64,000 nt of DNA, taken from positions 214,829-278,828 of the forward strand of contig DCAA01000026.1 in NCBI GenBank assembly GCA_002311345.1. Direction: 5' to 3'. Position numbers and translations under genes: made by a program. Source of the DNA: Planctomycetes bacterium UBA1146. Lineage in GTDB: Bacteria > Planctomycetota > UBA8108 > UBA1146. Under the pieces are notes generated by a model that was not told the origin of the DNA, did no database searches, and saw only the letters and a list, made by a program, of their open reading frames with translations. Every line of letters starts with the position of its first letter. Position 1 is the first letter of the stretch. Positions 38,593 to 56,157 of the stretch are shown here, in pieces.

Positions 38593-38916
38593 GTGATGGA
38601 ATCGATGGAGTGCCCCCACTGCGGCGCTCTCGTTCCTTCTCACAGGATCTGTTGCGCCGGCTGTGGCAGTGACCTGGAAACCGGCTGGATGGATCCTGAA
38701 CAGATCGACTATAAGTCCCTCGACCTTCCTGAAGATGAACTCCCTTCCACTCCAGATAATGAACCAGGTCAGGCGATATCCCAATCAGTGGTAGTCCTGC
38801 TGGCTCTTTTCATCGCGGCCCCCCTGTCCTTCTTCATGTTCGATAACATCGCCCAGATTGTGGGAGTGTGGGTGATCCTGGGGCTTCTCATGGGGATCAA
38901 GAAGTCACGGGACTAG
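38593..38916 (+). CDS. Small zinc-ribbon plus two-TM membrane protein, hypothetical
   Basis: CPHCG…CAGCG zinc-ribbon motif then hydrophobic C-terminus; 107 aa. Confidence 0.5.
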   Translation: MMESMECPHCGALVPSHRICCAGCGSDLETGWMDPEQIDYKSLDLPEDELPSTPDNEPGQAISQSVVVLLALFIAAPLSFFMFDNIAQIVGVWVILGLLMGIKKSRD

Positions 38917-39846
38917 GTCAGCTGCTCGATCTGGGCCATGCCTACCCCCCTGTGTACCTCTCCAGGCAACGGCCACGATCCCGCAGACAACCAGTGGACT
39001 GCCGATCCAGAACACATCGGGAGGTGTCTCCCCCAACATCATCCAGACCAGCAAAGGAGCACCAGCCACCTCACCGAGGAATGCCGTGGAAACCACCGAT
39101 GGAGGCAGATAATTCAAGGCAGCATTGAGAGGAGTGTGCCCCAACAAGGTCGGAAAGAGAGCCAGCAGAAGCGCAAGGGACCATTCCTTGCCACTCTCGG
39201 GTGCATGCAGTTCTCCGGTCGTCAACAGGTACGCCGTCAAGAGCAAAGCAGCTACTCCGTATGCACGACAGGTGTAAATCGAAGTGGGAAGATCACGGCT
39301 GGCCGCCCTGCCCGCGAAGATGTATCCGACAAAGGCAAAGGAACCGATCAGCGCGAGAACGACACCCAGGGTCGGATCTCTTTGTTCGAAATCGCCAGCA
39401 CCATCACCTGCATTCAGTGCGAGTAGCATGGTCCCCGTCAAGGCGACCATCACTCCAAGAAGGCGTATTCCATCTGCGCGAGCCTGTTTTCGGGCGACTT
39501 CGATGACGTATACGATCACTGGATGGACATAGACCAGTACCACGGAGATCGCCACGGACAGATGGGCCAACGAAGCCATCCACGCACCGAAGTGCACCGC
39601 GAGACAGGCGCCCGAGATGAGAACTGCTCGCCCACTCGTTTTCAGGGCAACTCTATGGCCACCCCTTCTCGACAACATCCACAACACGGGAACTGCGATG
39701 GCGAGTCTACGCAGTGCAAGGTTCACCTCTTCGCTATCAGAGAGACGAATCCACAACGTCGATGTCGAGATCCCGATGATCCCGATGATCAGCAGCCACC
39801 AGACATGGCTCCCTACTGCCTTCAATTTCGGGACTTCCTGGTTCAA
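38905..39846 (-). CDS. EamA/DMT-family permease
   Basis: 10-TM, 313 aa, two EamA-like halves; last gene of the co-directional block. Confidence 0.8.
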   Translation of the reverse strand: MNQEVPKLKAVGSHVWWLLIIGIIGISTSTLWIRLSDSEEVNLALRRLAIAVPVLWMLSRRGGHRVALKTSGRAVLISGACLAVHFGAWMASLAHLSVAISVVLVYVHPVIVYVIEVARKQARADGIRLLGVMVALTGTMLLALNAGDGAGDFEQRDPTLGVVLALIGSFAFVGYIFAGRAASRDLPTSIYTCRAYGVAALLLTAYLLTTGELHAPESGKEWSLALLLALFPTLLGHTPLNAALNYLPPSVVSTAFLGEVAGAPLLVWMMLGETPPDVFWIGSPLVVCGIVAVAWRGTQGGRHGPDRAADLVP

Positions 39847-41423
39847 GAGTTACCGGACTCCTGCCAGTGACCATCGATCCTGCGCATTCCGGATGCTCCC
39901 GTGCGCAACTCATCCGGGAGTGCACCATCGGGGAATCCCTGCCAGCAAACGGGACGCAGGAACCTGTCCATCGCAGCGGAACCTACCGAGGTCCAGCGCG
40001 AATCGGTGGTCGCAGGCCAGGGACCGCCATGTTGCATCGCTTCCCCGACCTCGACCCCGGTGGGGAAGGAGTTGAAGACCAGTCGACCAGCACGGTCCTC
40101 GAGCAGATGCAGAAGGGGCTTCATCTGTGACAGTTCCTCCTCGGACGCGTGTACCGTCGCCGTCAATTGCCCCTCGAGAACTCGTGCAACTTCCAGAAAC
40201 TCCTCAGGAGAATTGCACTCAACAAGCAAGGCTCCCGGCCCGAACACCTCACTCTGCATCGCTGGGTCCGCGATGAAACTGGCGAAGTCTACTCTCAACA
40301 AGGAAGCCCCCGCCGCGCAGGAACCGTCGCCTGGGGGACCTCTTTCAATCACTTCGACCCCGCCTCGGGTAACGAGTTGCTCCACCGCATCGCGATAACC
40401 CTGCTGGATTCCCAGATGGAGCATCGTTCCAGCCGGTTCACTACAGAGCGACTGACTCAGTTCATCCCTGAACGCCGAGGCATTTTCGTCGGATACGATC
40501 ACGACGATCCCGGGACAGGTACAGAACTGTCCAACTCCAAGGCGAACGCTCGCTGCAAGCCCTTCGGCAATCTCCTGACGCCGGGTTTGCATCGCTTCCG
40601 GCAGGACGAAGACAGGATTGGCGCTTCCCATCTCGGCAAATACATCGACGGGAACCTCTCGATCTCTGGCCAATCGCCACAAAGCAATTCCTCCCGCACG
40701 AGAACCGGTGAAGGCGACGGCGCGAATACCCGGGTGCTGAACCAACTGTGTTCCCACATCAAAGGATTCCCCTTGAAGCAGGCTGAACATCCCTGCAGGG
40801 AATCCGACATCGCGAACCGCATCTTGCAATGCCCGACCTACCAGTTCACAAACACCCGGATGGGCCGGATGCCCTTTCGCAACGACAGGACAACCCGCCG
40901 CCCAGGCGCTGGCGGTATCTCCGCCTGCGACTCCGAAAGCCAACGGGAAATTACAGGCGCCAAATACCGCCACGGGACCGATGGCCCGCATCCCGAGGCG
41001 AAGATCCGGCCGAGGGATGGGCTGCCGGTCGGGAAGCGCGGTCTCGATGACGGGCTTCTGAAACGGACCTTCTCGTACCACCGAGGCAAAAAGTCGAAGT
41101 TGATGACAGGTGCGACCCCGCTCACCCTCGAAACGCGCCTGCGGAAGACCGGTTTCCTGCATTCCCCGGGCGGTGATCTCGGAGCCCAACGCTTCGATCC
41201 GTTCGGCAGCGGCTTCCAGTAATCTCGCCCGCTGCTCGGGATCGGACGCTGATCTGCTCTCGTGGACCGAGAGTGCCGCCAAGACAGCAACGTCGATGTT
41301 CTCGGCGGTTGCCTCCGCAAATGTAGGCTCCAGTTCGAGGCCACTGACCGGGTTGATCGCCCGGAGGGTTCCCTCTCCCTCGATCTCCTCACCTGCGATG
41401 AGGTGAACACCCTGGATGCTCAT
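39843..41423 (-). CDS. NAD(P)-dependent aldehyde dehydrogenase (alpha-ketoglutarate-semialdehyde dehydrogenase-like)
   Basis: ALDH family motifs (…FTGSRAGG…, …EMGSANPVFVL…), 526 aa. Confidence 0.85.
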   Translation of the reverse strand: MSIQGVHLIAGEEIEGEGTLRAINPVSGLELEPTFAEATAENIDVAVLAALSVHESRSASDPEQRARLLEAAAERIEALGSEITARGMQETGLPQARFEGERGRTCHQLRLFASVVREGPFQKPVIETALPDRQPIPRPDLRLGMRAIGPVAVFGACNFPLAFGVAGGDTASAWAAGCPVVAKGHPAHPGVCELVGRALQDAVRDVGFPAGMFSLLQGESFDVGTQLVQHPGIRAVAFTGSRAGGIALWRLARDREVPVDVFAEMGSANPVFVLPEAMQTRRQEIAEGLAASVRLGVGQFCTCPGIVVIVSDENASAFRDELSQSLCSEPAGTMLHLGIQQGYRDAVEQLVTRGGVEVIERGPPGDGSCAAGASLLRVDFASFIADPAMQSEVFGPGALLVECNSPEEFLEVARVLEGQLTATVHASEEELSQMKPLLHLLEDRAGRLVFNSFPTGVEVGEAMQHGGPWPATTDSRWTSVGSAAMDRFLRPVCWQGFPDGALPDELRTGASGMRRIDGHWQESGNS

Positions 41424-42415
41424 CGCTTCTCCTCCACGTCCTGGACCGGATTGGAGGCGAGTGATTCACGAATCACCTCGAGTGCCCCCGTTCGAAGCGC
41501 TCCTGCGGCAGGAAAGCGAGGAGCGCGTACTCTCTCCGATCCTCGCCCCACCTCCTGCTGGACCAGTTTGATCAGTTGCACGAACTCTGGCACACAATCG
41601 AGCCGCAACAGCGGCAAGAACCAGCTGTATATTTGATCCGCCTCGCGGGCCGCGGCTGGATCCTCGAGCCCTTGAACTGCTTTCTCGAACAGCAGCACTG
41701 ACTCTCTGGGCATTGCATTGACCAGACCGGCAATCCAACCCACTGCCCCCTGACGCACCGCTTCCACAACCATGTCATCGAGTCCCGCAAACAGGGCGAG
41801 TCGATCACCAACGATGGAATGTATTGCAGTGATACGACGAGCATCTCCACTCGAGTCCTTCACCGCACAAAGTCTCTCGCTTCGCTCGGCCAGACTTGCG
41901 ATCCAGCCCGGAGAAAAATCGACTCCGTATGCGATGGGATTGTTGTAGAGGATGCAGGGAAGATCTGTCGACTCGATCACCGCTTCGACGTGCGCCTCGA
42001 CTTCATGGAAGGGTCCCCTGTGGATGTAAGGGGGAAGAACCATCAATCCCCGAGCCCCCATCACCTTCGCGGTCGCGGCGAGTCTCCCCGCTTCCCGGGT
42101 AGAAGCTGCAGCGATACCAGGAATCACCGGAACCCGATCCCCGACCGCTCTGACAACAGTGTCGATGATCTTCTGCTTCTCATCGAATGAAAGAGTGGCT
42201 CCTTCGCCAAGCGATCCGCACGGGATGATTCCGGAGGCACCCTGTTGGACGAGCCAGTTGCAGTGCTCCGCGAGAAAAGCGTAATCCACATCATCCGCTT
42301 CGGTGAAGGGTGTGGTCACCGCTGGCATGACACCTGCCCAGGTGATGGAGGCGATGGGATTCGGATTCATAGATCTCCTTTGTGTGCAGGGGCACCCGAG
42401 GCCCGGATGGTGCAC
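41420..42415 (-). CDS. DapA/dihydrodipicolinate-synthase-family enzyme (candidate pyrroline-4-hydroxy-2-carboxylate deaminase or related lyase)
   Basis: Class I aldolase DapA-family sequence (…GVMPAVTTPF…GSLGEGATLS…). Start may be the internal Met (MNPNPIAS…). Confidence 0.75.
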   Translation of the reverse strand: MHHPGLGCPCTQRRSMNPNPIASITWAGVMPAVTTPFTEADDVDYAFLAEHCNWLVQQGASGIIPCGSLGEGATLSFDEKQKIIDTVVRAVGDRVPVIPGIAAASTREAGRLAATAKVMGARGLMVLPPYIHRGPFHEVEAHVEAVIESTDLPCILYNNPIAYGVDFSPGWIASLAERSERLCAVKDSSGDARRITAIHSIVGDRLALFAGLDDMVVEAVRQGAVGWIAGLVNAMPRESVLLFEKAVQGLEDPAAAREADQIYSWFLPLLRLDCVPEFVQLIKLVQQEVGRGSERVRAPRFPAAGALRTGALEVIRESLASNPVQDVEEKR

Positions 42416-42493: not shown

Positions 42494-43444
42494 CTAATTG
42501 CGAGATCTGCGTGTCACGAGCCAGAAGAGTACCGGGGCTCCGAGGGCTGCCGTCACAACTCCTACCGGAATCTCCCGCTGATCCACCAGAACCCTGCCGA
42601 TGGAATCGCAAAGTGGTAAGAAGACCGCGCCCAGCAACATCGAACCGGGAATCAGGATTCTCGGAGCAGCCCCGACAATTCTCCGAACGATGTGTGGACA
42701 GATCAGGCCGACGAACGCAATGGGACCACAGGTCGCTACACACGCCGCCACGCCGAGGGATGCAAAACCTAACCCGAGAGTTCGAATGCGAGGCACCTCG
42801 ACGCCACGAGTCCGAGCTCGCTCTGTCCCGGAAACGAGCACTTCCAGCGGTCGGATCAACCACACCAATCCAAGCAGTGTGATCACTACGAACGGGGTCA
42901 ACATCGCGATGCGATCCATTCCTACCATCGTCAAACTCCCCAGCGACCAGCGCAGGGCACTGAGTGACGTGATCTGGTCAACACCGAGTCGTAACGTTGA
43001 AGACACGGCACCGGTTGCTAACGTCAGGGCGATTCCTGCCAGCAAGACGTCTTCCGTGCGAGCACGATTTCTCGAGGCAACCGCGGAGATCACCAGCGTC
43101 ACCGTCAACGCACCGATGAAGGCCGCCGCTGGTAACAGTGGAAAACCGAGCAGAGTACTTCCACTGCCGAGGACCAGCGCTGCCAGAACTCCGAGAGTCG
43201 CTCCCGCCGTGGTCCCGACGGTGCTCGGGGTTGCCAGCGGATTCTGGAGCAGGATCTGCACAACTGCCCCCGCCGCAGAAAGAACCGCTCCGACCAGTGC
43301 CCCGGCCAGAGCCCGGGGAAGTCTCAGTTCGATGAGAATCAGATCACCGCGCTCTCCGGCCAGCGATGGCCCGACCCACGCGGTTGCCACCACGATGGCG
43401 GTACCCACCAGGGTCCATCCGAGCAGACGAAGCGGAGCCGTCAT
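42494..43444 (-). CDS. FecCD-family ABC transporter permease (metal-chelate/B12-type)
   Basis: BtuC/FepD-like 9-10 TM protein, 316 aa. Confidence 0.85.
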   Translation of the reverse strand: MTAPLRLLGWTLVGTAIVVATAWVGPSLAGERGDLILIELRLPRALAGALVGAVLSAAGAVVQILLQNPLATPSTVGTTAGATLGVLAALVLGSGSTLLGFPLLPAAAFIGALTVTLVISAVASRNRARTEDVLLAGIALTLATGAVSSTLRLGVDQITSLSALRWSLGSLTMVGMDRIAMLTPFVVITLLGLVWLIRPLEVLVSGTERARTRGVEVPRIRTLGLGFASLGVAACVATCGPIAFVGLICPHIVRRIVGAAPRILIPGSMLLGAVFLPLCDSIGRVLVDQREIPVGVVTAALGAPVLFWLVTRRSRN

Positions 43445-44223
43445 GACAGATCCTCCTCCATTGCCGGCAGCCAGAACTCATTGCCTGCCGATTCCATGCG
43501 ATGGAAGGGCACCCCATGAATCTGCTCGAGACCTTGCCCGAACTGGTCGTGATCGAGTTGCCCCTGCCAGACGATCTTCCCTTCGCGCAGGCCGATGACC
43601 CGAGTCCTGGATGCATCGACATGGCCCAGCAGATGAACGTCATGAAGTGCGACCAGTGCTGTAGTTCCCTCGCTGACCTTACCGTCGAGAAAACGTAGGG
43701 TTCTGGCTCGCCACACCGGATCGAGATGATTGGCGGGTTCATCGAGGAGCCAACATCGAGCCTGTTGGGCGACCATCGTCGCCAGTTCGACACGCTGACG
43801 CTCTCCACCGGAGAGTTCCGTCACATAGCGTCGAGCAAGATCTCCCGCTCCCGCCTCTGCCAGCGCGATGTGGGCTGCCTCGAGAGCCACGGCCCTCGGT
43901 TCGTCGAACCGATACCGAGATGCCGCCACTACATCTTCAACCAGCAGTGCATCGGTAGTGGATCCCTCCTGGGGAAGCCATGCCATCACACTCGCACGAT
44001 GTTTCGCACCCATCGATGAGAGTTGCTTTCCTTCCACCTGGACGGTGCCCGAATCGAGCGATACAAGTCCGAGCAGGGCCTTGATCAGCGTGGTTTTCCC
44101 TGAACCGTTAGCCCCGATGATGGCGATCATCTCCCCCTCTGCGACCTCGATGGAAACGTCATCGAGGATGGGGAGACCGCCGGCGAGAACCGTTGCGTTG
44201 TTGAGAGCCAGCAGTGCTGCCAT
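43441..44223 (-). CDS. ABC transporter ATP-binding protein (FepC/BtuD-like)
   Basis: Walker A GANGSGKTT, signature LSGGERQRV, Walker B LLDEP. Confidence 0.9.
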   Translation of the reverse strand: MAALLALNNATVLAGGLPILDDVSIEVAEGEMIAIIGANGSGKTTLIKALLGLVSLDSGTVQVEGKQLSSMGAKHRASVMAWLPQEGSTTDALLVEDVVAASRYRFDEPRAVALEAAHIALAEAGAGDLARRYVTELSGGERQRVELATMVAQQARCWLLDEPANHLDPVWRARTLRFLDGKVSEGTTALVALHDVHLLGHVDASRTRVIGLREGKIVWQGQLDHDQFGQGLEQIHGVPFHRMESAGNEFWLPAMEEDLS

Positions 44224-49312: not shown

Positions 49313-50769
49313 CCATTCTTCCCCTCCCGGGAACTCTGTTTGGCACTCGCTTTGGCAATTTTCAGATCAGCAGCAGCGGGGTGATTCTTGTAATGATCAT
49401 CAAGCGGAAAACAGCCGCTCAGAAGGCCATTGCGTGGCGCCGTTGTGCAATCGCTGAATGTTCTGCAGATGAGTTTTTTTGGCATCTGTCGTCCGTGAAT
49501 GACATCTCTTGGCAAGTCTGGATAAGAAAGCATCGAACGACCGAGACCGATCACATCCTGGTAACCGTTGCGGATCTCGTGCTGGGCCACCGCAGGGAGC
49601 CACTCCTGCAGATAACTCCAACCGGTTCCGACCAGACCGAGATCGGGGAATTCGCTACGAATCCGTCTCGCCGCCCGCAAGTGCTGGGCCACTCCAACGA
49701 GCGGATCTTCCGGCGGTAGATATCCATCACTGGGTGGATACTGCGCAGGTCGCTGCCGGTGGGGACAATAGTACGGAGATCCGATGGTCAGGTTGAGCCA
49801 ATCGATACCGGCCTGCTGGAGCATCGAGACCAGTTGCAACGGTTCATCCCAGCATGGCTGCAGCGGGTCTTGCGGATCGATGCCGAAACCATGTTCGTAG
49901 GATTCGCTGCCGGGCCAGTCCGGCTCGCCAGCCCCATCAGTGGACTCGCGGAAGGGCACCACATCGGTCACCGACAATCGGACCCCGATGCCGAGACCGG
50001 GAACAGCACTCCTTACCTGTGCGATCAAATCCCTCAGGAAGCGACTTCGGCCCTCGAGATCTCCGCCGTAGCGACCCGGGCGAGCACGAGCGGATAACAA
50101 CTCATGGATCAGATATCCGTGACAGGCCTTGAGATCGACGAAGTCAAACCCGGTATCGAGGGCGCATCTGGCCACCTCGACGTAACGCTGTGCGATCGTT
50201 TCCAGATCGGTATCGGAGAGGATCTGGTCGGATGTCGCACCGACCCGGGCATCGAGTATCGGATGCTCGAAGGCGATAAGAGGAGAGGCCCCCTGGCGGT
50301 TCGGCCGTGACCACCTTCCCGAGTGCGTCAGTTGCAATCCGGTGATCGACTGCCTGGGCGCTTCTTCTCCGATGCCCTCGCGACCGCTGGCAAGAGCGGA
50401 TCGGAGGGATTCCAGTGCGCGACAGGTATTGTCTCGATCCCGATGAAACAGTTGATTCGGATTTGCACGCCCATCCTCACGCACGGCGAACGCCTCACCG
50501 CCCCAGATCAGAGCAGCACCACTCTGGCCGAAGCGTCGCCAGCGACGCAGTGTCTCCTCGGAAGGAAAACCATCGGACTGTGCATCCCAGCCCTCCATGG
50601 GATGAACGGCGAAACGGTTCGACAGTGCCCAACCCCCCTTCTCGATGGCCGATCCCAGTGGACCTGGCGACTCGACCTCGTCATCGAGATCGAGTTCGGG
50701 GGCAATCTCCTTCCAACGAGCGCGAAAGGCATCGACATCTCTATAGCGGTTAGGAGAGACGATCTTCAT
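49309..50769 (-). CDS. Old Yellow Enzyme-family NADH:flavin oxidoreductase
   Basis: Old Yellow Enzyme (OYE) TIM-barrel motifs (…LKACHGYLIHELLS…); start at internal ATG (MKIVSP…) overlapping the upstream stop as ATGA. Confidence 0.8.
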   Translation of the reverse strand: MKIVSPNRYRDVDAFRARWKEIAPELDLDDEVESPGPLGSAIEKGGWALSNRFAVHPMEGWDAQSDGFPSEETLRRWRRFGQSGAALIWGGEAFAVREDGRANPNQLFHRDRDNTCRALESLRSALASGREGIGEEAPRQSITGLQLTHSGRWSRPNRQGASPLIAFEHPILDARVGATSDQILSDTDLETIAQRYVEVARCALDTGFDFVDLKACHGYLIHELLSARARPGRYGGDLEGRSRFLRDLIAQVRSAVPGLGIGVRLSVTDVVPFRESTDGAGEPDWPGSESYEHGFGIDPQDPLQPCWDEPLQLVSMLQQAGIDWLNLTIGSPYYCPHRQRPAQYPPSDGYLPPEDPLVGVAQHLRAARRIRSEFPDLGLVGTGWSYLQEWLPAVAQHEIRNGYQDVIGLGRSMLSYPDLPRDVIHGRQMPKKLICRTFSDCTTAPRNGLLSGCFPLDDHYKNHPAAADLKIAKASAKQSSREGKNG

Positions 50770-52208
50770 CCGTTTTCTCCGGTTCGATCCTGCAGGTGGC
50801 GACGTCTGGCATCGGGAGTCGGTTCGATGGTGCAACCATATCCCTCGCAGTCGAGCGAACCGATGGCCAGATTCCCGTTCTCGATGATGAGTTCGCCCGA
50901 ATTTTCAAATGGACGATACATATCAGGGTGCTGGCTCAGAAGTTGTGCCACTTCCTGCTCGGGCAGATGATCGAGACCTCGAAAATAGTGATGGCCATTT
51001 CTCTCGACATGGTGCAATCCCAATGCAGCCACCGTCAACAGATCCTGGTGCAGCCCCCACGGTGGCAAGTTGGTCAGATCCTCGGCGCTGATGAAGCAAC
51101 CATCGTGGAGATCACAGATACCCTGATGAGCGATCGATCGCGAAACTCCCTTGCAGTTCTTGGCGGAAACTCCCCGATAACCGAGCCTCAACGCCTCGAT
51201 GAAAGCCTCCGGACCGTGATCCGCCTCATCGATGATCACCGGGGCAATGGCAGCCAATGATGTGGGCGCCGCAGCATCATCGAAGGTACTGGCCCGCGGA
51301 ACCGGTTGCTCGATGCTGACGATGTTCGAGACGAAGTTCTGACCGGTGGAAGTTCGGCCGAGTTGGTCGATCACTCCGGCGAGCAGATCCGGATCCTGAT
51401 ACTGCTCGTTTCCATCCAGGGTCACCCGGAATTGGGGGTCCGCTTCACGCGAAAGGATCGATGCAATCCTCTCCAGGCGTTCCAGATCCTGTTGAGGATC
51501 TCCCCCAACCTTGACCTTGAACCAGAGCAGTCCATGTCTCTGGATGTCCTCGATGAGTGTCACCGGTAAACCATCCTCCGGTGCCTCCTGTGACCGTGTT
51601 TCCAAATCATCGAGCAAACCCACCGTATGACGAACTGCAAGTTTCTCGGGTAGCGGTGCTGGTTCGAATTTCCAATCGCCGAGTTGCGGGTAAAATCGCG
51701 CGGGGTCGATTCTGAACAGGTCGCAGTCGAGAGAGGTGAGAAAAGAGAGCCCCACTCCCCTACAGGTGGCATCCATCATCGCCCGCTCACAGATGGCACA
51801 TCCGAATCCACGGGTGAGACGATCCTGCGCGGTGACGGGCACACTGAGAACGCGGGCTTCGAGCATCCTCCAGTAATGATCGAAAACACTCGCCAGGGAT
51901 CCATCGGTGAGGATCTCGCCGGCGCAATCGATACTATCGACAAGACTACGGATATCATCTTCAACGGATCGTTCAGGATCCTTCTCGAACCAGCGAGGAA
52001 CCAGTAGTTCCGATGACCAGCCAGCCAGCGCTGTTCCATCCGATGTCTCCGCCGTCAGAGCCACCACCGCCATCGGTGCTTCGGTCAGGGTATGGATACC
52101 GAAACGAAACGGGATTCTGGTGGTGCAGTTGTGCAACTCCAGATCGACTCCGGTCACCCTGATCTGCAATGTGCAGCCTCCCACCGAAGAATGGCGCTCA
52201 GAGGGCAT
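50766..52208 (-). CDS. Enolase-superfamily (mandelate racemase/muconate lactonizing enzyme-like) protein with N-terminal extension
   Basis: KxK-like FKVKVG, candidate metal ligands in …RVTLDGNEQY…, …SIEQPV…, …VIIDEAD…; 480 aa. Confidence 0.55.
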   Translation of the reverse strand: MPSERHSSVGGCTLQIRVTGVDLELHNCTTRIPFRFGIHTLTEAPMAVVALTAETSDGTALAGWSSELLVPRWFEKDPERSVEDDIRSLVDSIDCAGEILTDGSLASVFDHYWRMLEARVLSVPVTAQDRLTRGFGCAICERAMMDATCRGVGLSFLTSLDCDLFRIDPARFYPQLGDWKFEPAPLPEKLAVRHTVGLLDDLETRSQEAPEDGLPVTLIEDIQRHGLLWFKVKVGGDPQQDLERLERIASILSREADPQFRVTLDGNEQYQDPDLLAGVIDQLGRTSTGQNFVSNIVSIEQPVPRASTFDDAAAPTSLAAIAPVIIDEADHGPEAFIEALRLGYRGVSAKNCKGVSRSIAHQGICDLHDGCFISAEDLTNLPPWGLHQDLLTVAALGLHHVERNGHHYFRGLDHLPEQEVAQLLSQHPDMYRPFENSGELIIENGNLAIGSLDCEGYGCTIEPTPDARRRHLQDRTGENG

Positions 52209-52241
52209 CCTGCACCGCTGGTGATCTGGATCAAGGATCGA

Positions 52242-53360
52242 TCAATTCCTGCCGGGATCCCACGGCGTGGGGTCGATGACAGGCTCCTCGTCAAAAATTG
52301 AAGCAGCGATCAGTTCCGCTGCTGCAGGTGCCTGGGTGATTCCAAGGCCCTCGAAACCGGCAGCGACCCACAGCGAGGAAGATCCAGGAAGGAGTCCGAT
52401 CAATGGACGACCATCGGCGCTGGCAGCACGAGTCCCGGTCCACTTGCGTATGATGGGCAGTCCTGCGATTCCTGGGATGAAGCGTTCAGCACGGTGGATG
52501 ATCCTCTCCATCAGATCGGAATCCAAGCCGCCTGCCCTCCTGGGGCGACGCGATGATCCGATGCAGAGTTGATCGGTCGATCTTGGCAATACCGCGCAGG
52601 CAACTGCCTCATCCTCTTCACCCTGGGCTCCCTTCTGGTAACCGGCCTCCACCACATGGTGAGAGATGATACAGGTTCCGCGCGTGGTGATCGCCAGGTG
52701 CCCTTCTCTCGGGTGAATGGGAATGCAATTTTCTGACCCAGGGCACAGTTCGAGTGCATCGAGACCGGATGCAATCACGATGGCATCGGCGACCATGCTC
52801 TCTCCGTGGGCGAATACAACCCGGTTTTCCTCTACCGATGTCACCCGGGTTCTGCATCGGATCGTCGCTCCGAGTCTACGGGACTCCGCGACGAGAGCTG
52901 CAGCGGCAGCGGGAGCATAGAGAACCCCGTCCTGGGGCAACTGAAGTCCACCGATGAGATCTCGTGACAGAGCAGGTTCTGCATCGAAGAGTGCGGCTCC
53001 CTCGAGGAGGTGCGCTGTCACACCGGCAGTTGCCAACCTATCAGCAGCTCGCGATAGATTATCGAGGCCGTGCTGGTCTTCGGCCATCCAGAGTGTGCCG
53101 GATTCGATGAAACCATCATCTGGATTCATCGGGGGCGCATCTTCACGCCACAATTTCCTACCCAGAAGACACAACTGAAGCCCGGCGGGCTCTGCATCGT
53201 TGACCACGATGTGGCCCATCCCCGCTGCAGTGGCTCCGTGCAACCCGGGGCCATCTCCGGCTTCGATGATCTCTACCTGGCCCCCACGTCTGACCAGACT
53301 CCTGGCACAGGCGGCACCCACAATGCCTCCTCCGACCACGATGATCCGCAGAGTGCTCAT
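52242..53360 (-). CDS. FAD-dependent oxidoreductase, DAO family (opine oxidase subunit B / D-amino-acid dehydrogenase-like)
   Basis: N-terminal Rossmann IIVVGGGIVGAACA; 372 aa. Confidence 0.8.
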   Translation of the reverse strand: MSTLRIIVVGGGIVGAACARSLVRRGGQVEIIEAGDGPGLHGATAAGMGHIVVNDAEPAGLQLCLLGRKLWREDAPPMNPDDGFIESGTLWMAEDQHGLDNLSRAADRLATAGVTAHLLEGAALFDAEPALSRDLIGGLQLPQDGVLYAPAAAAALVAESRRLGATIRCRTRVTSVEENRVVFAHGESMVADAIVIASGLDALELCPGSENCIPIHPREGHLAITTRGTCIISHHVVEAGYQKGAQGEEDEAVACAVLPRSTDQLCIGSSRRPRRAGGLDSDLMERIIHRAERFIPGIAGLPIIRKWTGTRAASADGRPLIGLLPGSSSLWVAAGFEGLGITQAPAAAELIAASIFDEEPVIDPTPWDPGRN

Positions 53361-54511
53361 CTGACTTTCTCCATCGATGTGGCCGGGTTGGCTTCGCCAC
53401 TCTCACCGATGGCAACTTCCCGGGCGGCGCGATACACCTCCAGTGTTTCGCGAGCGCAACGTTGCCAGTTGAACGAGGTCGCATATTCGCGGGCAGCAGC
53501 GCGGTTCGAATCTTGTTGCGAAAGCGCCCGAAGCAGTGCCTGCGCGATCGAAAGTGGATCATCCGGTTGGCAAGTCTCGGCGAATCCACCCGCGATCTCC
53601 GGTGCAGCACCTTGACCGGCTATCACGACGGGACAACCGCATCCCATCGCCTCGAGGATCGGCATCCCGAAACCCTCGTAAAAACTGCAATACAACAACG
53701 CGCGAGATGATGAATATAGTGCCGGGAGCACATCATCCCCCACCCATCCAACGTGATGGATCAGGCCTTTGCCTTCCTCCTCGATGAAGGACTGCAACTC
53801 TTCGCCTCCAAAGGTGAGGTCTCCCGCGAGAACGAGAGGAACATCTCCAAGATCAGCAGCCATGAATCCGCGAATGATCCCGGGAATATTCTTCCGATGG
53901 GAAAGATCTCCGACGTACAGGATCGCTCGCTCTGGAATCCCTTTCTGCCTCAGGATATCCGCGCTCATCTCGGGTGGCATCGGGGAAAAGATGCGGTCAA
54001 CCCCGTGGTACACCTTCACGACCTTCTCTTCGGGACAATCGATGTGACTGAGGAAGTCGTGACGTGTCGTCTCGCTCACAGCGATGATCCGATGACAATC
54101 GCGGGCGATGGCACGATATCCCTCGATCATTCGATCCCTGAAACCGGTGGTCGAGATCGGTTCTTTGCCCAACAGGTCCGGAACCAGGTGCATTACATCG
54201 TGAAGGGTCGCCACCCGCGCGGCTCGCCAGCGTGGGACCCGCGAATCAGTGACATGAACTACATCCGGCCTCATCAATGGAGGCCACCACGGCTCCTGGA
54301 TCCAGAATCTAGAACAACTGCCTACCTCGAGACGGTGACGGTGGTGACGCAGATGAGAAAAACGGGTTCCGAGCGCGATGTCGACATCGAGATCGGACAG
54401 TGATCTGGCGAGTTGTGCGGTATATCTGCCGATACCCGTCGGTCGGGGCGTACAGGCAGCAGTGGCGTCTATGGCGATACGCAAGGAACCTCCAGGCGGA
54501 GGATAGGTCAC
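53357..54511 (-). CDS. GT4-family glycosyltransferase
   Basis: GT-B fold with C-terminal EX7E-type region (…YCSFYEGFGMPILEAMGCGCPVV…). Confidence 0.8.
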   Translation of the reverse strand: MTYPPPGGSLRIAIDATAACTPRPTGIGRYTAQLARSLSDLDVDIALGTRFSHLRHHRHRLEVGSCSRFWIQEPWWPPLMRPDVVHVTDSRVPRWRAARVATLHDVMHLVPDLLGKEPISTTGFRDRMIEGYRAIARDCHRIIAVSETTRHDFLSHIDCPEEKVVKVYHGVDRIFSPMPPEMSADILRQKGIPERAILYVGDLSHRKNIPGIIRGFMAADLGDVPLVLAGDLTFGGEELQSFIEEEGKGLIHHVGWVGDDVLPALYSSSRALLYCSFYEGFGMPILEAMGCGCPVVIAGQGAAPEIAGGFAETCQPDDPLSIAQALLRALSQQDSNRAAAREYATSFNWQRCARETLEVYRAAREVAIGESGEANPATSMEKVR

Positions 54512-54517
54512 CAGTGG

Positions 54518-55471
54518 CTACAGGTCGATGCCATGGCGAAAAGGATCGTCTTCCATGAAGTGAAGCGTTCCTTCGCCAGTGAGGTAAGCACTACCCCGGA
54601 TCGTCGGATAGACCCCATCCCCGTCCGCCACAAAGGTGCCCGAGAACCGGGTTCCGAGAACTCCCATCTGGATCCACGGGGCACCCTCCTGTAACTGCCC
54701 ACGGGCATGCAAGCAGGCCAGAGTCGCACTGGTTCCGGTTCCACAGGGTGAACGATCCCATTCCTTGCCGGGACAGAGAACGAAGGATCGCACCCCTACC
54801 TGCTGTTTTGAAGGCAGTGATTGATGCAACTCGATATGGTCGATCGCGGCCCCGGAAGTGCCCGTTACTCCATCGGCCTCGAGAGCGGTACGGATCTCAC
54901 AGCAAAGGTCGATGAGTTGGTCAATTCGAGAAGGTTCGATGGGAACGCCAGGACTTTCGGTGATGAAGAACCAGTTCCCCCCCCAGGCAACATCTCCGAT
55001 GAGTTCGATGCCTTCATGGGTGGTGACCGATACATCCGACATTTCCCGGAAACTTCTGACGTTACGAACCGAAACATCTCCTTCTGGATGCAAGATGGTC
55101 TCGATGACCCCCGCCGGAGTCTCCAGTGTGCAACCGCCCACCTCGATCTTGCCGATGTGGTGTAATGCTTTCACCACACCGATGGCACCGTGACCACACA
55201 TAGCGAGGGTGCCTACGTTGTTGAAAAAGATCACTCCCGCATCACATTCCGCGATGGACGAATCGAGTAACAAAGCGGCGACCATCGCCTCGTGTCCACG
55301 CGGCTCTCGGACGATCCCCGCTCTGAGGGCATCGTGATCCCTGGTGAGCACATCGCGGCAATCAGAGACGCTCTCCCCCTCGAGATGGGGGAAACCATCG
55401 ATGATGATGCGCGTCGGTTCACCAGCAGTGTGGGTATCGATGTAGCGGATATCCGCGGCAGCCATACTCAT
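54518..55471 (-). CDS. Proline-racemase-family enzyme with both catalytic Cys (4-hydroxyproline 2-epimerase / proline racemase type)
   Basis: …LAMCGHGAIG… and …DRSPCGTGTSA… Cys-Cys pair; 317 aa. Confidence 0.85.
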   Translation of the reverse strand: MSMAAADIRYIDTHTAGEPTRIIIDGFPHLEGESVSDCRDVLTRDHDALRAGIVREPRGHEAMVAALLLDSSIAECDAGVIFFNNVGTLAMCGHGAIGVVKALHHIGKIEVGGCTLETPAGVIETILHPEGDVSVRNVRSFREMSDVSVTTHEGIELIGDVAWGGNWFFITESPGVPIEPSRIDQLIDLCCEIRTALEADGVTGTSGAAIDHIELHQSLPSKQQVGVRSFVLCPGKEWDRSPCGTGTSATLACLHARGQLQEGAPWIQMGVLGTRFSGTFVADGDGVYPTIRGSAYLTGEGTLHFMEDDPFRHGIDL

Positions 55472-56157
55472 CTGACCTGAGCAACCAGAAGCCCCTGACG
55501 CATCGGAAGGATCGTTCCCTGCATACGGGGGTGTTCGGAGACCATCTTGTTGAAGTTATCGATGGCAACACGGGATGGCTCCTCGTCGATGGAGCCGGGA
55601 ACCCAGCCTTTCCCCGCCCCGAGAACGTTGTCGGCCACGATCAGCCCACCACTTCTGACGAGCGGAAATCCAGCCTCCAGGTAACCGGGATACTCGGTCT
55701 TGATGGCATCGATGAAGAGCAGATCACAACTCTCGACTCCCAGTTCCTCGACCAGATCCGGTAACACCTTCAAGCCCTCGCCAACCCGGATATCGATCCG
55801 ATGTTCCTTCGCCCGCGAGATCGCTCCCCGGGCAAAGTCAGCATGGTGGGGATCGGACTCGATGGTGACGATCTTGCCCTCGGGAGAAAGCCCCCTCGCC
55901 AGCGCCAGAGCACTGGCTCCGCCAAGAGTTCCCACCTCGACGATCAGGTGAGCTCCTCCCTCACGGCTCATCGTAGCCAGCAGTGACAACCAGCGTCCCA
56001 CCGCTGCCCCGACCGAGATGGCAGGTAATCCGGCTTCTACCGCAGCATCATGTTCTCGTGACCAGCGCTCACGATCATCACTGAAGAGTTGCTCGATGTA
56101 CTCGTGAGTGGCTTCCCAACGCTGCTGGGACATCCCCTCGGAGGTAGAATCCGCCAT
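55468..56157 (-). CDS. Class I SAM-dependent O-methyltransferase (family 3, caffeoyl-CoA OMT-like)
   Basis: …LIVEVGTLGGASALALA… (motif I) and …DLLFIDA…; 229 aa. Confidence 0.8.
   Translation of the reverse strand: MADSTSEGMSQQRWEATHEYIEQLFSDDRERWSREHDAAVEAGLPAISVGAAVGRWLSLLATMSREGGAHLIVEVGTLGGASALALARGLSPEGKIVTIESDPHHADFARGAISRAKEHRIDIRVGEGLKVLPDLVEELGVESCDLLFIDAIKTEYPGYLEAGFPLVRSGGLIVADNVLGAGKGWVPGSIDEEPSRVAIDNFNKMVSEHPRMQGTILPMRQGLLVAQVR

What the first reader, a model, noticed from the sequence alone, without database searches (positions are those of the whole stretch)
38905..56157. ~17-kb co-directional, translationally coupled block uniting a hydroxyproline/imino-acid oxidation pathway with transporters and unusual tailoring enzymes
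Fifteen consecutive minus-strand genes, most joined by 4-nt overlaps. They include a proline-racemase-family epimerase with both catalytic Cys (54518-55471), OoxB/DAO-like (52242-53360) and OoxA/HcnB-like (45154-46707) oxidase subunits, a DapA-family enzyme (41420-42415) and an aldehyde dehydrogenase (39843-41423). These are the four activities of the known trans-4-hydroxy-L-proline → D-Hyp → pyrroline-4-hydroxy-2-carboxylate → alpha-ketoglutarate semialdehyde → 2-oxoglutarate route, with an opine-oxidase-type dehydrogenase. Interleaved are an OYE flavoenzyme, an enolase-superfamily enzyme, DUF993, a GT4 glycosyltransferase and an O-methyltransferase. Those are not part of any described Hyp pathway, which points to catabolism of a modified, glycosylated, methylated or opine-like imino acid.
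Basis: partly seen in the sequence, partly recalled or inferred. Interest (0 to 1): 0.6.

Follow-up and report, generated by a model that had tools for sequence, protein, structure and literature searches.

The report
Hydroxyproline operon split by unrelated cassette
This 17-kb gene block from a marine Planctomycete is a standard hydroxyproline-degradation operon that has been split by unrelated insertions, one of which is a self-contained four-gene operon of unknown function that occurs on its own in hundreds of related genomes.

Summary
Fifteen minus-strand genes lie at 38905-56157, and 10 of the 14 junctions are start/stop overlaps. The same-strand run continues through icd and fpg, giving 17 genes.

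Five genes match the characterised P. aeruginosa hydroxyproline (Hyp) enzymes over their full length and lie in the canonical order:
- epimerase, LhpA (48% identity)
- dehydrogenase beta subunit, LhpB (42%)
- a fused LhpE+LhpF subunit (38% and 36%)
- deaminase, LhpC (40%, and lacking the Arg138 of true DHDPS)
- aldehyde dehydrogenase, LhpG (45%)

The supposed tailoring enzymes are not part of that pathway. The enolase-superfamily, OYE-like, Nramp-like and DUF993 genes form an autonomous, translationally coupled four-gene operon. It stands alone, with no Hyp genes within 10 kb, in all the more distant related loci examined, mostly Planctomycetota. A sister lineage keeps the same block in the same position but lacks this cassette and the methyltransferase.

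The GT4, a BtuCD-type ABC importer and the EamA gene are older companions of the Hyp genes, and their link to Hyp is unproven.

The cassette's substrate is unknown. The transporter has lost every Nramp metal ligand, and DUF993 has the DHDPS/NAL aldolase fold. No paper in the searched library mentions DUF993.

The parts
55468..56157 (-). Class I cation-dependent O-methyltransferase (Methyltransf_3). Present only in the window's own lineage and absent from the sister lineage L096.
   Evidence: Pfam E 1.1e-35. The best PDB relatives are generic family-3 O-methyltransferases. There is no match in L096. An ATGA overlap joins it to the epimerase gene.
54518..55471 (-). 4-hydroxyproline 2-epimerase (LhpA/HypE type) with a Cys/Cys catalytic pair.
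   Evidence: The best NCBIfam match is 4-hydroxyproline epimerase at 346 bits, against 205 bits for proline racemase. The PDB top hits are 4-Hyp epimerases, including PA1268/2AZP. It is 48% identical to P. aeruginosa LhpA. Both catalytic Cys align.
53357..54484 (-). GT4 glycosyltransferase with an intact E-x7-E motif, intercalated between the epimerase and the dehydrogenase beta subunit. It is also present in the sister lineage.
   Evidence: Pfam Glycos_transf_1 and Glyco_transf_4. It is 52% identical to the syntenic gene in L096. It has only weak, generic PDB and NCBIfam relatives such as MshA and BshA.
52242..53360 (-). D-hydroxyproline dehydrogenase beta subunit (LhpB type, DAO family).
   Evidence: Pfam DAO E 4e-59. 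It is 42% identical to LhpB over the full length. In the plasmid collection its best matches, at 36-42%, are LhpB-type genes beside epimerases. Identity then drops sharply below 31%, and no Ti-plasmid opine oxidase appears among the records shown.
50766..52169 (-). Cassette gene 1: a divergent enolase-superfamily enzyme with a catalytic layout like the MLE subgroup.
49309..50769 (-). Cassette gene 2: an OYE-like FMN oxidoreductase of 486 aa, with a family-specific insertion and a C-terminal three-cysteine motif.
   Evidence: Pfam Oxidored_FMN matches only profile positions 10-231 of 342. Sixty-three homologues keep NRFAxHPMEGWD, GLQLTHSGR, KxCHGYL and CRTFSDCTTxPRNGxxSGC.
47879..49312 (-). Cassette gene 3: an Nramp-fold membrane transporter that lacks the Nramp metal-binding residues. 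It is the presumed importer of the cassette's substrate.
   Evidence: Pfam Nramp E 1e-26. NCBIfam Nramp_1 scores 44.7 bits, below its cut-off of 50. E. coli MntH D34, N37, M209 and H211 are replaced by G, T, G and N in all or nearly all 46 cassette homologues.
46704..47882 (-). Cassette gene 4: a DUF993 protein with a DHDPS/NAL-type class I aldolase fold and an invariant Lys on strand beta-6.
45154..46707 (-). D-hydroxyproline dehydrogenase gamma-alpha fusion: a 2Fe-2S domain followed by an FAD/NAD(P)-binding domain (LhpE + LhpF).
   Evidence: Pfam Fer2_4 plus Pyr_redox_2. Residues 7-83 are 38% identical to LhpE and residues 129-482 are 36% identical to LhpF. The fusion architecture is common, and JGI often names it D-hydroxyproline dehydrogenase subunit alpha.
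44223..45101 (-). Substrate-binding protein of a type II (BtuCD/Fhu-like) ABC importer. Its ligand is unknown.
   Evidence: Pfam Peripla_BP_2 E 1.7e-12. It has only one weak PDB relative, 4OVK at 25 bits. It is conserved in the sister lineage at 49% identity.
43441..44223 (-). ATPase of the ABC importer.
   Evidence: Pfam ABC_tran. The closest NCBIfam models are the heme, F420-0 and corrinoid importer ATPases, all below their cut-offs.
42494..43444 (-). FecCD-family permease of the ABC importer.
   Evidence: Pfam FecCD E 1e-76. NCBIfam BtuC, FhuB and FecD models match below their cut-offs.
41420..42370 (-). [quoted passage not shown]
   Evidence: It is 40% identical (215 bits) to LhpC, against 30% (111 bits) to E. 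coli DapA. K161 and Y133 are kept, while R138 becomes Ala, Y107 becomes Ile and T44/T45 become Ser/Leu, as is also seen in LhpC. It scores below the NCBIfam dapA cut-off.
39843..41423 (-). Alpha-ketoglutarate semialdehyde dehydrogenase (LhpG type, 526-aa NADP-type ALDH).
   Evidence: It is 45% identical to LhpG across 521 residues. The PDB top hits are the 528-aa 'aldehyde dehydrogenase (NADP+)' 3V4C (450 bits) and 1EYY.
38905..39846 (-). EamA-family (drug/metabolite transporter) membrane protein. It is the last gene of the run and its start codon is uncertain (TTG).
   Evidence: Pfam EamA, two repeats. It is conserved in the sister lineage at 57% identity.
56176..58372 (-). Isocitrate dehydrogenase (56176-57393) and Fpg DNA glycosylase (57506-58372). 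These are housekeeping genes at the head of the same co-directional run and are not part of the pathway.
   Evidence: NCBIfam NADP-dependent isocitrate dehydrogenase at 747 bits, above its cut-off. Pfam Fapy_DNA_glyco and H2TH. The gap to the methyltransferase gene is 18 nt. The same synteny is seen in L002, L008 and L096.

Best explanation
The block is a lineage-specific mosaic, not one pathway.

**Backbone.** The backbone is the ordinary bacterial route from trans-4-hydroxy-L-proline to 2-oxoglutarate:
1. An LhpA-type epimerase makes cis-4-hydroxy-D-proline.
2. A flavin and iron-sulfur D-hydroxyproline dehydrogenase oxidises it to delta1-pyrroline-4-hydroxy-2-carboxylate. This enzyme is built from an LhpB-type beta subunit and a fused LhpE-LhpF gamma-alpha subunit.
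3. An LhpC-type DHDPS-family deaminase gives alpha-ketoglutarate semialdehyde.
4. An LhpG-type NADP aldehyde dehydrogenase gives 2-oxoglutarate.

These genes keep the canonical order A-B-(E)F-C-G. Their enzyme identities are shown by homology. Their activities are inferred.

**Insertions.** Other genes are wedged between the backbone genes.
- A GT4 glycosyltransferase, a BtuCD-type ABC importer and a terminal EamA transporter are shared with a sister lineage. They are old companions of unproven relevance. The ABC system is the only importer in the ancestral block, so it may bring in the substrate (inferred).
- An O-methyltransferase and a complete four-gene operon were inserted only in the window's own lineage. 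The operon sits exactly between the beta and gamma-alpha subunit genes.

**The cassette.** That operon encodes a divergent enolase-superfamily enzyme, an OYE-like flavoenzyme, an Nramp-fold transporter without metal ligands, and DUF993. It is an independent unit found alone across Planctomycetota.

My best guess for its action is inferred and of low confidence. The transporter imports an unidentified carboxylic acid. The enolase-type enzyme abstracts the alpha-proton, giving epimerisation, dehydration or cycloisomerisation. The OYE-like enzyme carries out a flavin-dependent redox step on the activated product. DUF993 then uses a Schiff-base lysine on a 2-oxo-acid intermediate, as its DHDPS/NAL relatives do.
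For: **Hyp backbone.**
- All five proteins match the characterised P. aeruginosa Lhp proteins over their full length at 36-48% identity.
- The epimerase has both catalytic Cys and groups with solved 4-Hyp epimerases.
- The DHDPS-family protein lacks the residues specific to true DHDPS.
- The DAO protein's only strong relatives are LhpB-type.
- A Deinococcus plasmid carries the same genes contiguously in the same order. Another Planctomycete has epimerase, DAO and the fused subunit contiguous.

**Autonomy of the cassette.**
- tblastn of all 17 window proteins against 87 related loci found the enolase-like gene in 87, OYE in 68, Nramp in 62 and DUF993 in 52, in the same order and on the same strand in nearly all of them.
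- Every Hyp gene, GT4, the methyltransferase, the binding protein and the FecCD permease was found only in the 7-9 loci of the window's own clade, where the enolase-like protein is at least 68% identical.
- The next closest relatives (62% and 57% identical) carry the cassette as a tight four-gene operon. In one it is flanked on both sides by opposite-strand genes; in the other, on the downstream side only.
- No other gene family recurs next to it beyond single clades.

**Natural deletion control.**
- Locus L096 keeps TopA, Fpg, ICDH, epimerase, GT4, DAO, the fused subunit, the ABC importer, DHDPS-family, ALDH and EamA, out to ClpC, at 49-89% identity.
- It has no cassette and no methyltransferase. 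DAO overlaps the fused-subunit gene directly, as in other bacteria.

**Cassette protein features.**
- The enolase-like protein has the enolase fold with the full set of MLE-type catalytic residues.
- DUF993 has the DHDPS/NAL fold with an invariant Lys on beta-6.
- The transporter has lost the Nramp metal ligands.
Against: - Translational coupling continues across the insertion: there is an ATGA overlap between DUF993 and the fused-subunit gene, and only 72 nt between DAO and the enolase-like gene. The arrangement is kept in at least seven related metagenome-assembled genomes. Co-expression with the Hyp genes is therefore likely, and a functional link cannot be excluded.
- The enolase MLE subgroup includes a hydroxyproline-betaine epimerase and a cis-3-hydroxyproline dehydratase (the latter is my own knowledge). 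The DHDPS/NAL fold includes Pyr4H2C deaminase and dehydratases that form alpha-ketoglutarate semialdehyde. The cassette's chemistry could therefore converge on the Hyp route.
- No enzyme activity, substrate or transcript has been measured.
- All NCBIfam matches of the Hyp proteins fall below the curated equivalog cut-offs.
- Conservation of GT4, the ABC importer and EamA with the Hyp genes is seen only inside a larger syntenic region that also holds housekeeping genes. It does not prove or disprove a shared function.
- Loci were examined only within 10 kb of the cassette. Hyp genes elsewhere in those genomes were not looked for.
Confidence: 0.7

Rival explanations
1. All fifteen genes act together on one modified imino acid that is glycosylated, methylated or opine-like. 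The OYE, enolase-superfamily, DUF993, GT4 and methyltransferase proteins would be tailoring or de-tailoring enzymes that feed the Hyp core.
For: The genes are tightly packed, with 10 of 14 junctions overlapping. The whole layout is conserved in at least seven related genomes.
Against: - The cassette is autonomous in every related locus examined outside the window's own clade, with no Hyp gene within 10 kb.
- A sister lineage lacks the cassette and the methyltransferase but keeps all the other genes.
- GT4 and the O-methyltransferase add groups and do not remove them, so they make no sense in a catabolic de-tailoring role.
- The same co-directional run also holds icd and fpg, which shows that adjacency here is not specific to one pathway.
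Confidence: 0.08
2. This is a model of adaptive convergence. The cassette degrades a different compound, but its product enters the Hyp route. The entry point could be cis-4-hydroxy-D-proline or Pyr4H2C from a hydroxyproline derivative such as a betaine. It could also be alpha-ketoglutarate semialdehyde from an acid sugar or lactone. Inserting the cassette into the Hyp operon would then let both routes share the downstream deaminase and/or aldehyde dehydrogenase and a common regulation.
For: - The insertion lies precisely inside the dehydrogenase gene pair, and translational coupling is preserved.
- The fold neighbours of DUF993 include Pyr4H2C deaminase, L-2-keto-3-deoxyarabonate dehydratase and keto-deoxy-galactarate dehydratase. 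By established pathway knowledge, all of these feed the step that oxidises alpha-ketoglutarate semialdehyde.
- The described betaine pathway combines an enolase-superfamily epimerase with a flavin demethylase (PMC3950512).
Against: - Stand-alone cassettes have no ALDH, DHDPS-family, DAO or epimerase homologue within 10 kb.
- The block contains no Rieske demethylase.
- The OYE-like protein lacks the C-terminal FAD/NAD domain that, to my knowledge, N-methylproline demethylases carry.
- The enolase-like protein shows no sequence-level affinity to HpbD. Only dipeptide epimerases reach E of about 1e-3.
Confidence: 0.17
3. This model proposes a metallophore or opine system. The siderophore-type ABC importer, Nramp-like transporter, EamA exporter and opine-oxidase-like dehydrogenase would together make, export, re-import and recycle a metal-chelating opine-type compound.
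For: - The FecCD and Peripla_BP_2 importer belongs to the class used for metal chelates, heme and B12.
- Some opine-metallophore systems use EamA-family exporters (my own knowledge).
- The dehydrogenase family also contains opine dehydrogenases (PMC4575208).
Against: - The DAO subunit is LhpB-like, and no Agrobacterium opine oxidase appears among its matches.
- The Nramp-like protein has lost its metal ligands.
- No nicotianamine-synthase-like or NAD(P)H opine-dehydrogenase gene is present.
- The epimerase, deaminase and ALDH all match the Hyp enzymes.
Confidence: 0.03

Closest known systems
[quoted passage not shown] 2012, cited in PMC4575208)
   Same: The same five enzyme families are present, with full-length identity of 36-48%. 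The relative gene order is the same: epimerase, then beta, then gamma and alpha, then deaminase, then ALDH. The dehydrogenase has the same heteromeric architecture, encoded by beta, gamma and alpha genes in tandem (PMC4575208).
   Different: - The gamma and alpha subunits are fused into one 517-aa protein.
- The operon is interrupted by GT4, the four-gene cassette and a BtuCD-type ABC importer.
- There is no GntR or LysR regulator and no amino-acid-type ABC transporter.
- There are no trans-3-Hyp genes: neither the second racemase-family paralogue nor LhpD.
Compact Hyp operon on a Deinococcus sp. QL22 plasmid (locus L091)
   Same: It has the closest epimerase in the plasmid collection, at 52% identity. 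The order is epimerase, DAO, 2Fe-2S protein, FAD oxidoreductase, DHDPS family, ALDH(NADP+). This equals the window's order once the insertions are removed.
   Different: The Deinococcus genes are contiguous, the gamma and alpha subunits are separate, a branched-chain-type binding protein follows, and an AraC regulator lies upstream.
Hydroxyproline-betaine and proline-betaine pathway: HpbD enolase-superfamily epimerase, HpbB/C Rieske demethylases and HpbA flavin demethylase (PMC3950512)
   Different: - Identity is only 15%, with no sequence-level match.
- There is no Rieske protein.
- The OYE-like protein lacks the FAD/NAD domain that, to my knowledge, N-methylproline demethylases carry.
- The cassette normally occurs without any proline or hydroxyproline genes nearby.
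SMc04132 of Sinorhizobium meliloti (PDB 4DNH), a DUF993 protein, and the DHDPS/N-acetylneuraminate-lyase superfamily
   Different: 4DNH has no assigned function. Alphaproteobacterial DUF993 genes sit in a different context, with CoA-transferase, acyl-CoA dehydrogenase, enoyl-CoA hydratase and sugar-phosphate-isomerase genes. DUF993 does not match the DHDPS Pfam model.
Nramp/SLC11 divalent-metal transporters (for example E. coli MntH)
   Same: It matches the Pfam Nramp domain over almost its whole length.
   Different: The metal-coordinating Asp, Asn and Met, and the conserved His, are replaced by Gly, Thr, Gly and Asn in all or nearly all 46 cassette homologues. It scores below NCBI's Nramp cut-off. 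It is encoded inside an enzyme operon.

Membership tests
Bacterial trans-4-hydroxy-L-proline catabolic pathway (LhpA/HypE, LhpB-E-F/HypO, LhpC/HypD, LhpG/KGSADH) | A proline-racemase-family enzyme with a Cys/Cys catalytic pair that is closer to 4-Hyp 2-epimerases than to proline racemases or 3-Hyp dehydratases. | tested here: met
   Both Cys align. The 4-Hyp epimerase model scores 346 bits, against 205 for proline racemase and 174 for the dehydratase. The PDB top hits are 4-Hyp epimerases. It is 48% identical to LhpA and 28% to the paralogue.
Bacterial trans-4-hydroxy-L-proline catabolic pathway (LhpA/HypE, LhpB-E-F/HypO, LhpC/HypD, LhpG/KGSADH) | A heteromeric D-hydroxyproline dehydrogenase with a DAO-family beta subunit, a 2Fe-2S gamma subunit and an FAD/NAD-binding alpha subunit. 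| tested here: met
   The beta subunit is 42% identical to LhpB. One protein carries an LhpE-like domain (38%) followed by an LhpF-like domain (36%). The best matches of the beta subunit are LhpB-type only.
Bacterial trans-4-hydroxy-L-proline catabolic pathway (LhpA/HypE, LhpB-E-F/HypO, LhpC/HypD, LhpG/KGSADH) | A DHDPS-family Pyr4H2C deaminase that is distinct from lysine-biosynthetic DapA. | tested here: met
   It is 40% identical (215 bits) to LhpC, against 30% (111 bits) to E. coli DapA. DapA Arg138, Tyr107 and Thr44/45 are not conserved, while Lys161 and Tyr133 are. It scores below the NCBIfam dapA cut-off.
Bacterial trans-4-hydroxy-L-proline catabolic pathway (LhpA/HypE, LhpB-E-F/HypO, LhpC/HypD, LhpG/KGSADH) | An alpha-ketoglutarate semialdehyde dehydrogenase of the roughly 526-aa NADP-type ALDH class. 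| tested here: met
   It is 45% identical to LhpG across 521 of 526 residues. The PDB top hit is the 528-aa 'aldehyde dehydrogenase (NADP+)' 3V4C.
Bacterial trans-4-hydroxy-L-proline catabolic pathway (LhpA/HypE, LhpB-E-F/HypO, LhpC/HypD, LhpG/KGSADH) | Scores above the curated equivalog cut-offs. | tested here: not met
   The epimerase scores 346 bits against a cut-off of 450. No Hyp-specific model for the other proteins reaches its cut-off. This reflects phylogenetic distance from the proteobacterial seed sequences and is not a different fold or motif.
Bacterial trans-4-hydroxy-L-proline catabolic pathway (LhpA/HypE, LhpB-E-F/HypO, LhpC/HypD, LhpG/KGSADH) | Enzyme activities on Hyp intermediates, induction by Hyp and growth on Hyp. 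| not testable with these tools
   The organism is uncultured and known only from a metagenome contig.
Flavin-containing opine oxidase/dehydrogenase (OoxA/OoxB, NoxA/NoxB, OdhABC) | A beta subunit that is closer to opine oxidase subunits than to LhpB. | tested here: not met
   A tblastn search of the plasmid collection found 88 matching records. The strong ones (36-42%) are LhpB-type genes beside epimerases. Agrobacterium is not among the ten most frequent genera, and no Agrobacterium record is among the 40 shown. The remaining 48 records and 17 further genera were not displayed.
Hydroxyproline-betaine / proline-betaine pathway (HpbD, HpbB/C, HpbA) | A Rieske-type betaine demethylase and a long FMN/FAD N-methylproline demethylase are present. 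| tested here: not met
   There is no Rieske domain in the block. The OYE-like protein is 486 aa and has no Pyr_redox domain. The pathway composition comes from PMC3950512; the domain architecture of the demethylase is my own knowledge.
Hydroxyproline-betaine / proline-betaine pathway (HpbD, HpbB/C, HpbA) | An enolase-superfamily member that is orthologous to HpbD. | tested here: not met
Enolase superfamily, MLE subgroup | A capping domain plus a modified TIM barrel. Metal ligands at the ends of strands 3, 4 and 5. A KxK motif on strand 2 and a Lys on strand 6. | tested here: met
Enolase superfamily, MLE subgroup | Recognised by the Pfam MR_MLE models. | tested here: inconclusive
   The window protein gives no Pfam hit at E 1e-3. 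About half of its homologues carry a precomputed PF13378 hit.
Nramp/SLC11 divalent-metal transporters | The DPGN and MPH motifs that supply the metal ligands. | tested here: not met
   These are replaced by GGGT and G-x-N in the cassette homologues. The Gly at the D34 and M209 positions and the Asn at H211 are invariant in all 46; the N37 position is Thr in 43 and Ser in 3. The score is below the NCBIfam Nramp_1 cut-off. The fold-level Pfam match is met.
DHDPS / N-acetylneuraminate lyase class I aldolase superfamily (for DUF993) | A TIM barrel with the family's helical C-terminal extension. | tested here: met
DHDPS / N-acetylneuraminate lyase class I aldolase superfamily (for DUF993) | A Schiff-base lysine on strand beta-6. 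| tested here: inconclusive
   An invariant K218 lies in a G-x-K-x-S motif on the sixth predicted strand. No structural superposition of the active sites and no chemical trapping was possible.
Old Yellow Enzyme family | An FMN-binding barrel with the His-His or His-Asn substrate-binding pair and a Tyr proton donor. | tested here: inconclusive
   The Pfam match covers only the first two thirds of the model. The motif is KxCHGYL, so the first His of the pair is Lys while the second His and the Tyr are kept in 63 homologues. The assignment of these positions rests on my knowledge of the YqjM and OYE1 motifs.

The most novel reading that the evidence does not exclude
The four-gene cassette (divergent enolase-superfamily enzyme, OYE-like flavoenzyme with three invariant cysteines, Nramp-fold transporter without metal ligands, and DUF993) would encode an undescribed catabolic pathway for a small organic acid that is widespread in Planctomycetota. 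This would give DUF993 its first function. To my knowledge it would also be the first Nramp/SLC11-fold transporter shown to carry an organic substrate instead of a metal ion.
Probability: 0.4. Interest if true: 0.7.

Novelty: new variant of a known kind. Interest (0 to 1): 0.4.

Why it matters
- **A caution for annotation.** Tight packing and 4-nt overlaps in a Planctomycete genome do not by themselves define a pathway. Here a textbook hydroxyproline operon has absorbed unrelated genes without losing translational coupling. Guilt-by-association annotation would have mislabelled four proteins.
- **A possible new catabolic trait.** The library search found only one paper linking hydroxyproline epimerase with Planctomycetota. 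If these marine Planctomycetota do catabolise hydroxyproline, that is relevant to the turnover of collagen-derived and algal cell-wall nitrogen in the sea.
- **A well-defined target of unknown function.** The four-gene operon has relatives in at least 583 matched stretches of species-representative genomes. It contains a domain of unknown function that already has a solved structure, and a metal-site-less Nramp homologue. It comes with a natural with/without pair of genomes for comparison.

Tried and rejected
- **Promoter and terminator scan of 38650-58600.** Promoter-like sites were no more frequent than in shuffled sequence (4 found, 5.9 expected). Terminator-like sites were somewhat more frequent (19 found, 12.5 expected, sd 3.2), but none of the minus-strand ones falls in an intergenic gap. 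Planctomycete promoters are not covered by the tool.
- **Rfam and tRNA scans.** No riboswitch or other RNA lies in the block. The only hit is a tRNA-Ser at 9971-10060.
- **Literature.** No paper mentions DUF993, and none combines Nramp, enolase superfamily, old yellow enzyme and Planctomycetes.
- **Recurrent neighbours of the cassette.** All-against-all clustering of naive ORFs in 80 loci mostly returned antisense shadow ORFs of the four genes. Real neighbour families recur only within single clades. Naive ORF calling in these GC-rich loci is unreliable, so I used the databases' own gene calls instead.
- **PDB sequence searches.** The binding protein, GT4 and the methyltransferase gave only generic or very weak relatives and no substrate clue.
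- **DUF993 context in cultured bacteria.** Paracoccus and Sagittula plasmids show a different, CoA-dependent neighbourhood that does not carry over to the cassette.
- **Metallophore or opine reading.** I considered and rejected this (see the rival explanations).
- **Shared aldehyde dehydrogenase.** I considered that the cassette shares the alpha-ketoglutarate semialdehyde dehydrogenase. No ALDH homologue lies within 10 kb of stand-alone cassettes, so I keep this only as a minor rival.

Full report

The junctions read from the sequence are eight ATGA overlaps, one TTGA and one TGATG, so 10 of 14 junctions overlap. Two caveats apply. The same-strand run continues upstream through isocitrate dehydrogenase (18-nt gap) and fpg, making 17 genes with two housekeeping genes at the head. 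In addition, 4-nt overlaps also occur elsewhere in the window.

**The hydroxyproline backbone is real.** I retrieved the experimentally characterised P. aeruginosa lhp cluster, which is present on a large replicon in the plasmid collection, and compared its proteins with the window's.

| Window protein | P. aeruginosa match | Identity |
|---|---|---|
| Racemase family | LhpA | 48% |
| DAO family | LhpB | 42% |
| Fer2_4 + Pyr_redox_2, N-terminal domain | LhpE | 38% |
| Fer2_4 + Pyr_redox_2, C-terminal domain | LhpF | 36% |
| DHDPS family | LhpC | 40% |
| ALDH | LhpG | 45% |

All of these matches cover the full length.
- The racemase-family protein keeps both catalytic cysteines. It scores far higher against 4-Hyp epimerase models and structures than against proline racemases or 3-Hyp dehydratases.
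- The DHDPS-family protein is closer to LhpC (215 bits) than to E. coli DapA (111 bits). It lacks DapA Arg138, Tyr107 and Thr44/45 but keeps the Schiff-base Lys161 and Tyr133, and LhpC likewise lacks Arg138 and Tyr107.
- The only strong relatives of the DAO subunit among 72,556 plasmids are LhpB-type genes next to epimerases. No Agrobacterium opine oxidase appears among the records shown.

According to PMC4575208, the D-Hyp dehydrogenase of P. aeruginosa is an alpha4-beta4-gamma4 enzyme whose beta, gamma and alpha genes lie in tandem. A fused gamma-alpha version is common in metagenomes, and JGI often names it D-hydroxyproline dehydrogenase subunit alpha. A Deinococcus plasmid carries exactly this gene set contiguously in the order epimerase, beta, gamma, alpha, deaminase, ALDH. 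No protein reaches a curated equivalog cut-off, however, and no activity can be measured here.

**The 'tailoring enzymes' are a separate operon.** Homologues of the enolase-like protein are numerous: more than 7,500 protein clusters, and at least 583 matched stretches in species-representative genomes. I fetched 80 of these loci with 10-kb flanks, plus several metagenome contigs, and searched all of them with all 17 window proteins.
- The enolase-like gene was found in 87 loci, the OYE-like gene in 68, the Nramp-like gene in 62 and DUF993 in 52. Many of the misses are contig ends.
- In nearly all of these loci the genes are in the same order and on the same strand. A few loci in Myxococcota and Deltaproteobacteria bins have the OYE gene inverted.
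- The epimerase, DAO, fused subunit, DHDPS-family gene, GT4, methyltransferase, binding protein and FecCD permease were found only in the 7-9 loci of the window's own clade. In that clade the enolase-like protein is at least 68% identical, and fpg and icd are syntenic as well.

Database gene calls for more distant members show a clean four-gene operon with 4-nt overlaps. This holds at 62%, 57%, 49% and 47% identity. Neighbours are unrelated in all four, and opposite-strand genes bound the operon on both sides in two of them and on one side in the other two. No other gene family recurs beside it beyond single clades.

**A natural control.** Searching with the fused dehydrogenase subunit recovered a sister lineage, locus L096 (54% identity). 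It has the same chromosomal context: TopA, Fpg, ICDH, epimerase, GT4, DAO, fused subunit, binding protein, ABC ATPase-permease, DHDPS family, ALDH and EamA, out to ClpC. It lacks both the four-gene cassette and the methyltransferase. In L096 the DAO gene overlaps the fused-subunit gene directly, as in another Planctomycete (L097) and as the contiguous genes do in Pseudomonas and Deinococcus. The parsimonious reading is that the cassette was inserted between the two dehydrogenase genes in the window's lineage. GT4, the ABC importer and EamA are older residents of the block. Their conservation is seen only inside a larger syntenic region that includes housekeeping genes, so it does not establish a role in Hyp metabolism.

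**What the cassette proteins look like.**
- *Enolase-like protein.* Its invariant residues K218-x-K220, D252, E287, D314 and K337 fall at the ends of predicted barrel strands 2 to 6. This is the layout of the muconate-lactonising-enzyme subgroup. Its nearest structures are dipeptide epimerases, cycloisomerases and N-succinyl-amino-acid racemase, together with 2PMQ, which I recall to be the hydroxyproline-betaine epimerase HpbD. Identity is only 13-21%. A family profile barely detects dipeptide epimerases in the PDB, at E of about 1e-3. It is a very divergent new family within the superfamily.
- *OYE-like protein.* It keeps the FMN-barrel motifs. It has Lys in place of the first His of the OYE His pair, a conserved proline-rich insertion and a C-terminal C-x5-C-x11-C motif that is invariant in 63 homologues. 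This motif resembles a three-cysteine remnant of the 4Fe-4S motif of dienoyl-CoA-reductase-type enzymes. That comparison rests on my own knowledge and was not tested. It has no C-terminal NAD/FAD domain.
- *Nramp-like protein.* When aligned with E. coli MntH, it has Gly, Thr (Ser in 3 of 46), Gly and Asn in place of D34, N37, M209 and H211 in the 46 homologues. It falls below NCBI's Nramp cut-off. It is unlikely to be a Mn/Fe transporter.

No paper in the searchable library mentions DUF993 or this gene combination.

**Mechanism.** For the backbone I commit to the standard route: Hyp, then cis-4-hydroxy-D-proline, then Pyr4H2C, then alpha-ketoglutarate semialdehyde, then 2-oxoglutarate. The homology is shown and the activity is inferred.

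For the cassette I propose, with low confidence, the following sequence. The Nramp-fold carrier takes up an unidentified carboxylate. The enolase-type enzyme abstracts the alpha-proton, giving epimerisation, dehydration or cycloisomerisation. The OYE-like enzyme performs a flavin-dependent redox step. DUF993 then carries out Schiff-base chemistry on a 2-oxo acid. The order of these steps and the substrate are unknown.

**Why the cassette sits inside the dehydrogenase gene pair.** Neutral capture into an expressed operon is the simplest explanation. A convergent-pathway explanation is not excluded. In that reading the product would enter at D-Hyp, Pyr4H2C or alpha-ketoglutarate semialdehyde and share the downstream enzymes. 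I give it about 0.17. The precedent is the betaine pathway, in which an enolase-superfamily epimerase and a flavin demethylase feed proline and hydroxyproline catabolism (PMC3950512). Against it, the block has no Rieske demethylase, and stand-alone cassettes have no Hyp-type or ALDH genes within 10 kb.

**Verdict.** The idea of a single pathway for a modified imino acid is not supported. The Hyp part is a new member of a known kind, in a phylum for which the library search found only one paper linking hydroxyproline epimerase with Planctomycetota. The mosaic arrangement is a variant of a known kind. The most interesting by-product is the autonomous four-gene cassette, which is widespread, uncharacterised and now well delimited for experiments.

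Noticed in passing
window 56176-58372 (minus strand): Isocitrate dehydrogenase and fpg head the same co-directional run. Only 18 nt separate icd from the methyltransferase gene, so housekeeping and catabolic genes may share transcripts.
   Followed up: partly
window 49309-50769; 63 homologues in loci L004-L087: The OYE-like family has an invariant C-terminal CRTFSDCTTxPRNGxxSGC motif (C-x5-C-x11-C) and Lys in place of the first His of the OYE His pair. This could be a three-cysteine Fe-S site without the usual reductase domain.
   Followed up: partly
L096 12491-14209: In the sister lineage the ABC ATPase and the FecCD permease are called as one fused 572-aa protein, with the ATPase N-terminal. 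In the window they are two genes joined by an ATGA overlap.
   Followed up: no
L094 9001-10149 and L095 9001-10152 (Paracoccus and Sagittula plasmids): DUF993 homologues (about 35% identical, annotated 'dihydrodipicolinate synthase family protein') sit in a conserved cluster. The cluster also holds CoA-transferase, enoyl-CoA hydratase, acyl-CoA dehydrogenase, SDR, sugar-phosphate isomerase and aldo/keto reductases, plus ETF in the Paracoccus locus and a TRAP transporter in the Sagittula locus. This is a different and also uncharacterised context for the family.
   Followed up: partly
L088 23528-24430: The P. aeruginosa lhp cluster also has an EamA-family transporter gene directly after lhpF, on the opposite strand. 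It shows no detectable similarity to the window's EamA at E 1e-3, so the recurrence may be analogous or coincidental.
   Followed up: partly
L041, L054, L056, L075 (bins labelled Myxococcota or Deltaproteobacteria): These loci carry a rearranged version of the cassette. The OYE-like gene is divergent on the opposite strand, the enolase-like and Nramp-like genes are adjacent, and no DUF993 lies within the locus.
   Followed up: no
L022, L033, L034, L036, L040: In these loci only the enolase-like and OYE-like genes were detected next to each other, without the Nramp-like or DUF993 genes. L034 and L040 end soon after the OYE-like gene, so their downstream genes may simply be cut off. In the others, the enolase-OYE pair may be the core of the cassette.
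   Followed up: no
window 40149-41222 (+), 42600-43598 (+) and similar: Long plus-strand ORFs lie antisense to the ALDH and permease genes. These are shadow ORFs typical of GC-rich coding DNA. The same artefact produced 'conserved' antisense clusters across the related loci.
   Followed up: partly
window 9971-10060 (+): A tRNA-Ser (anticodon TGA) is the only RNA gene detected in the 64-kb window.
   Followed up: no
L097 11617-12183: In another Planctomycete the epimerase, DAO and fused-subunit genes are followed by an SBF-like (bile acid:sodium symporter family) gene at the contig end. This could be an alternative Hyp importer in that lineage.
   Followed up: no
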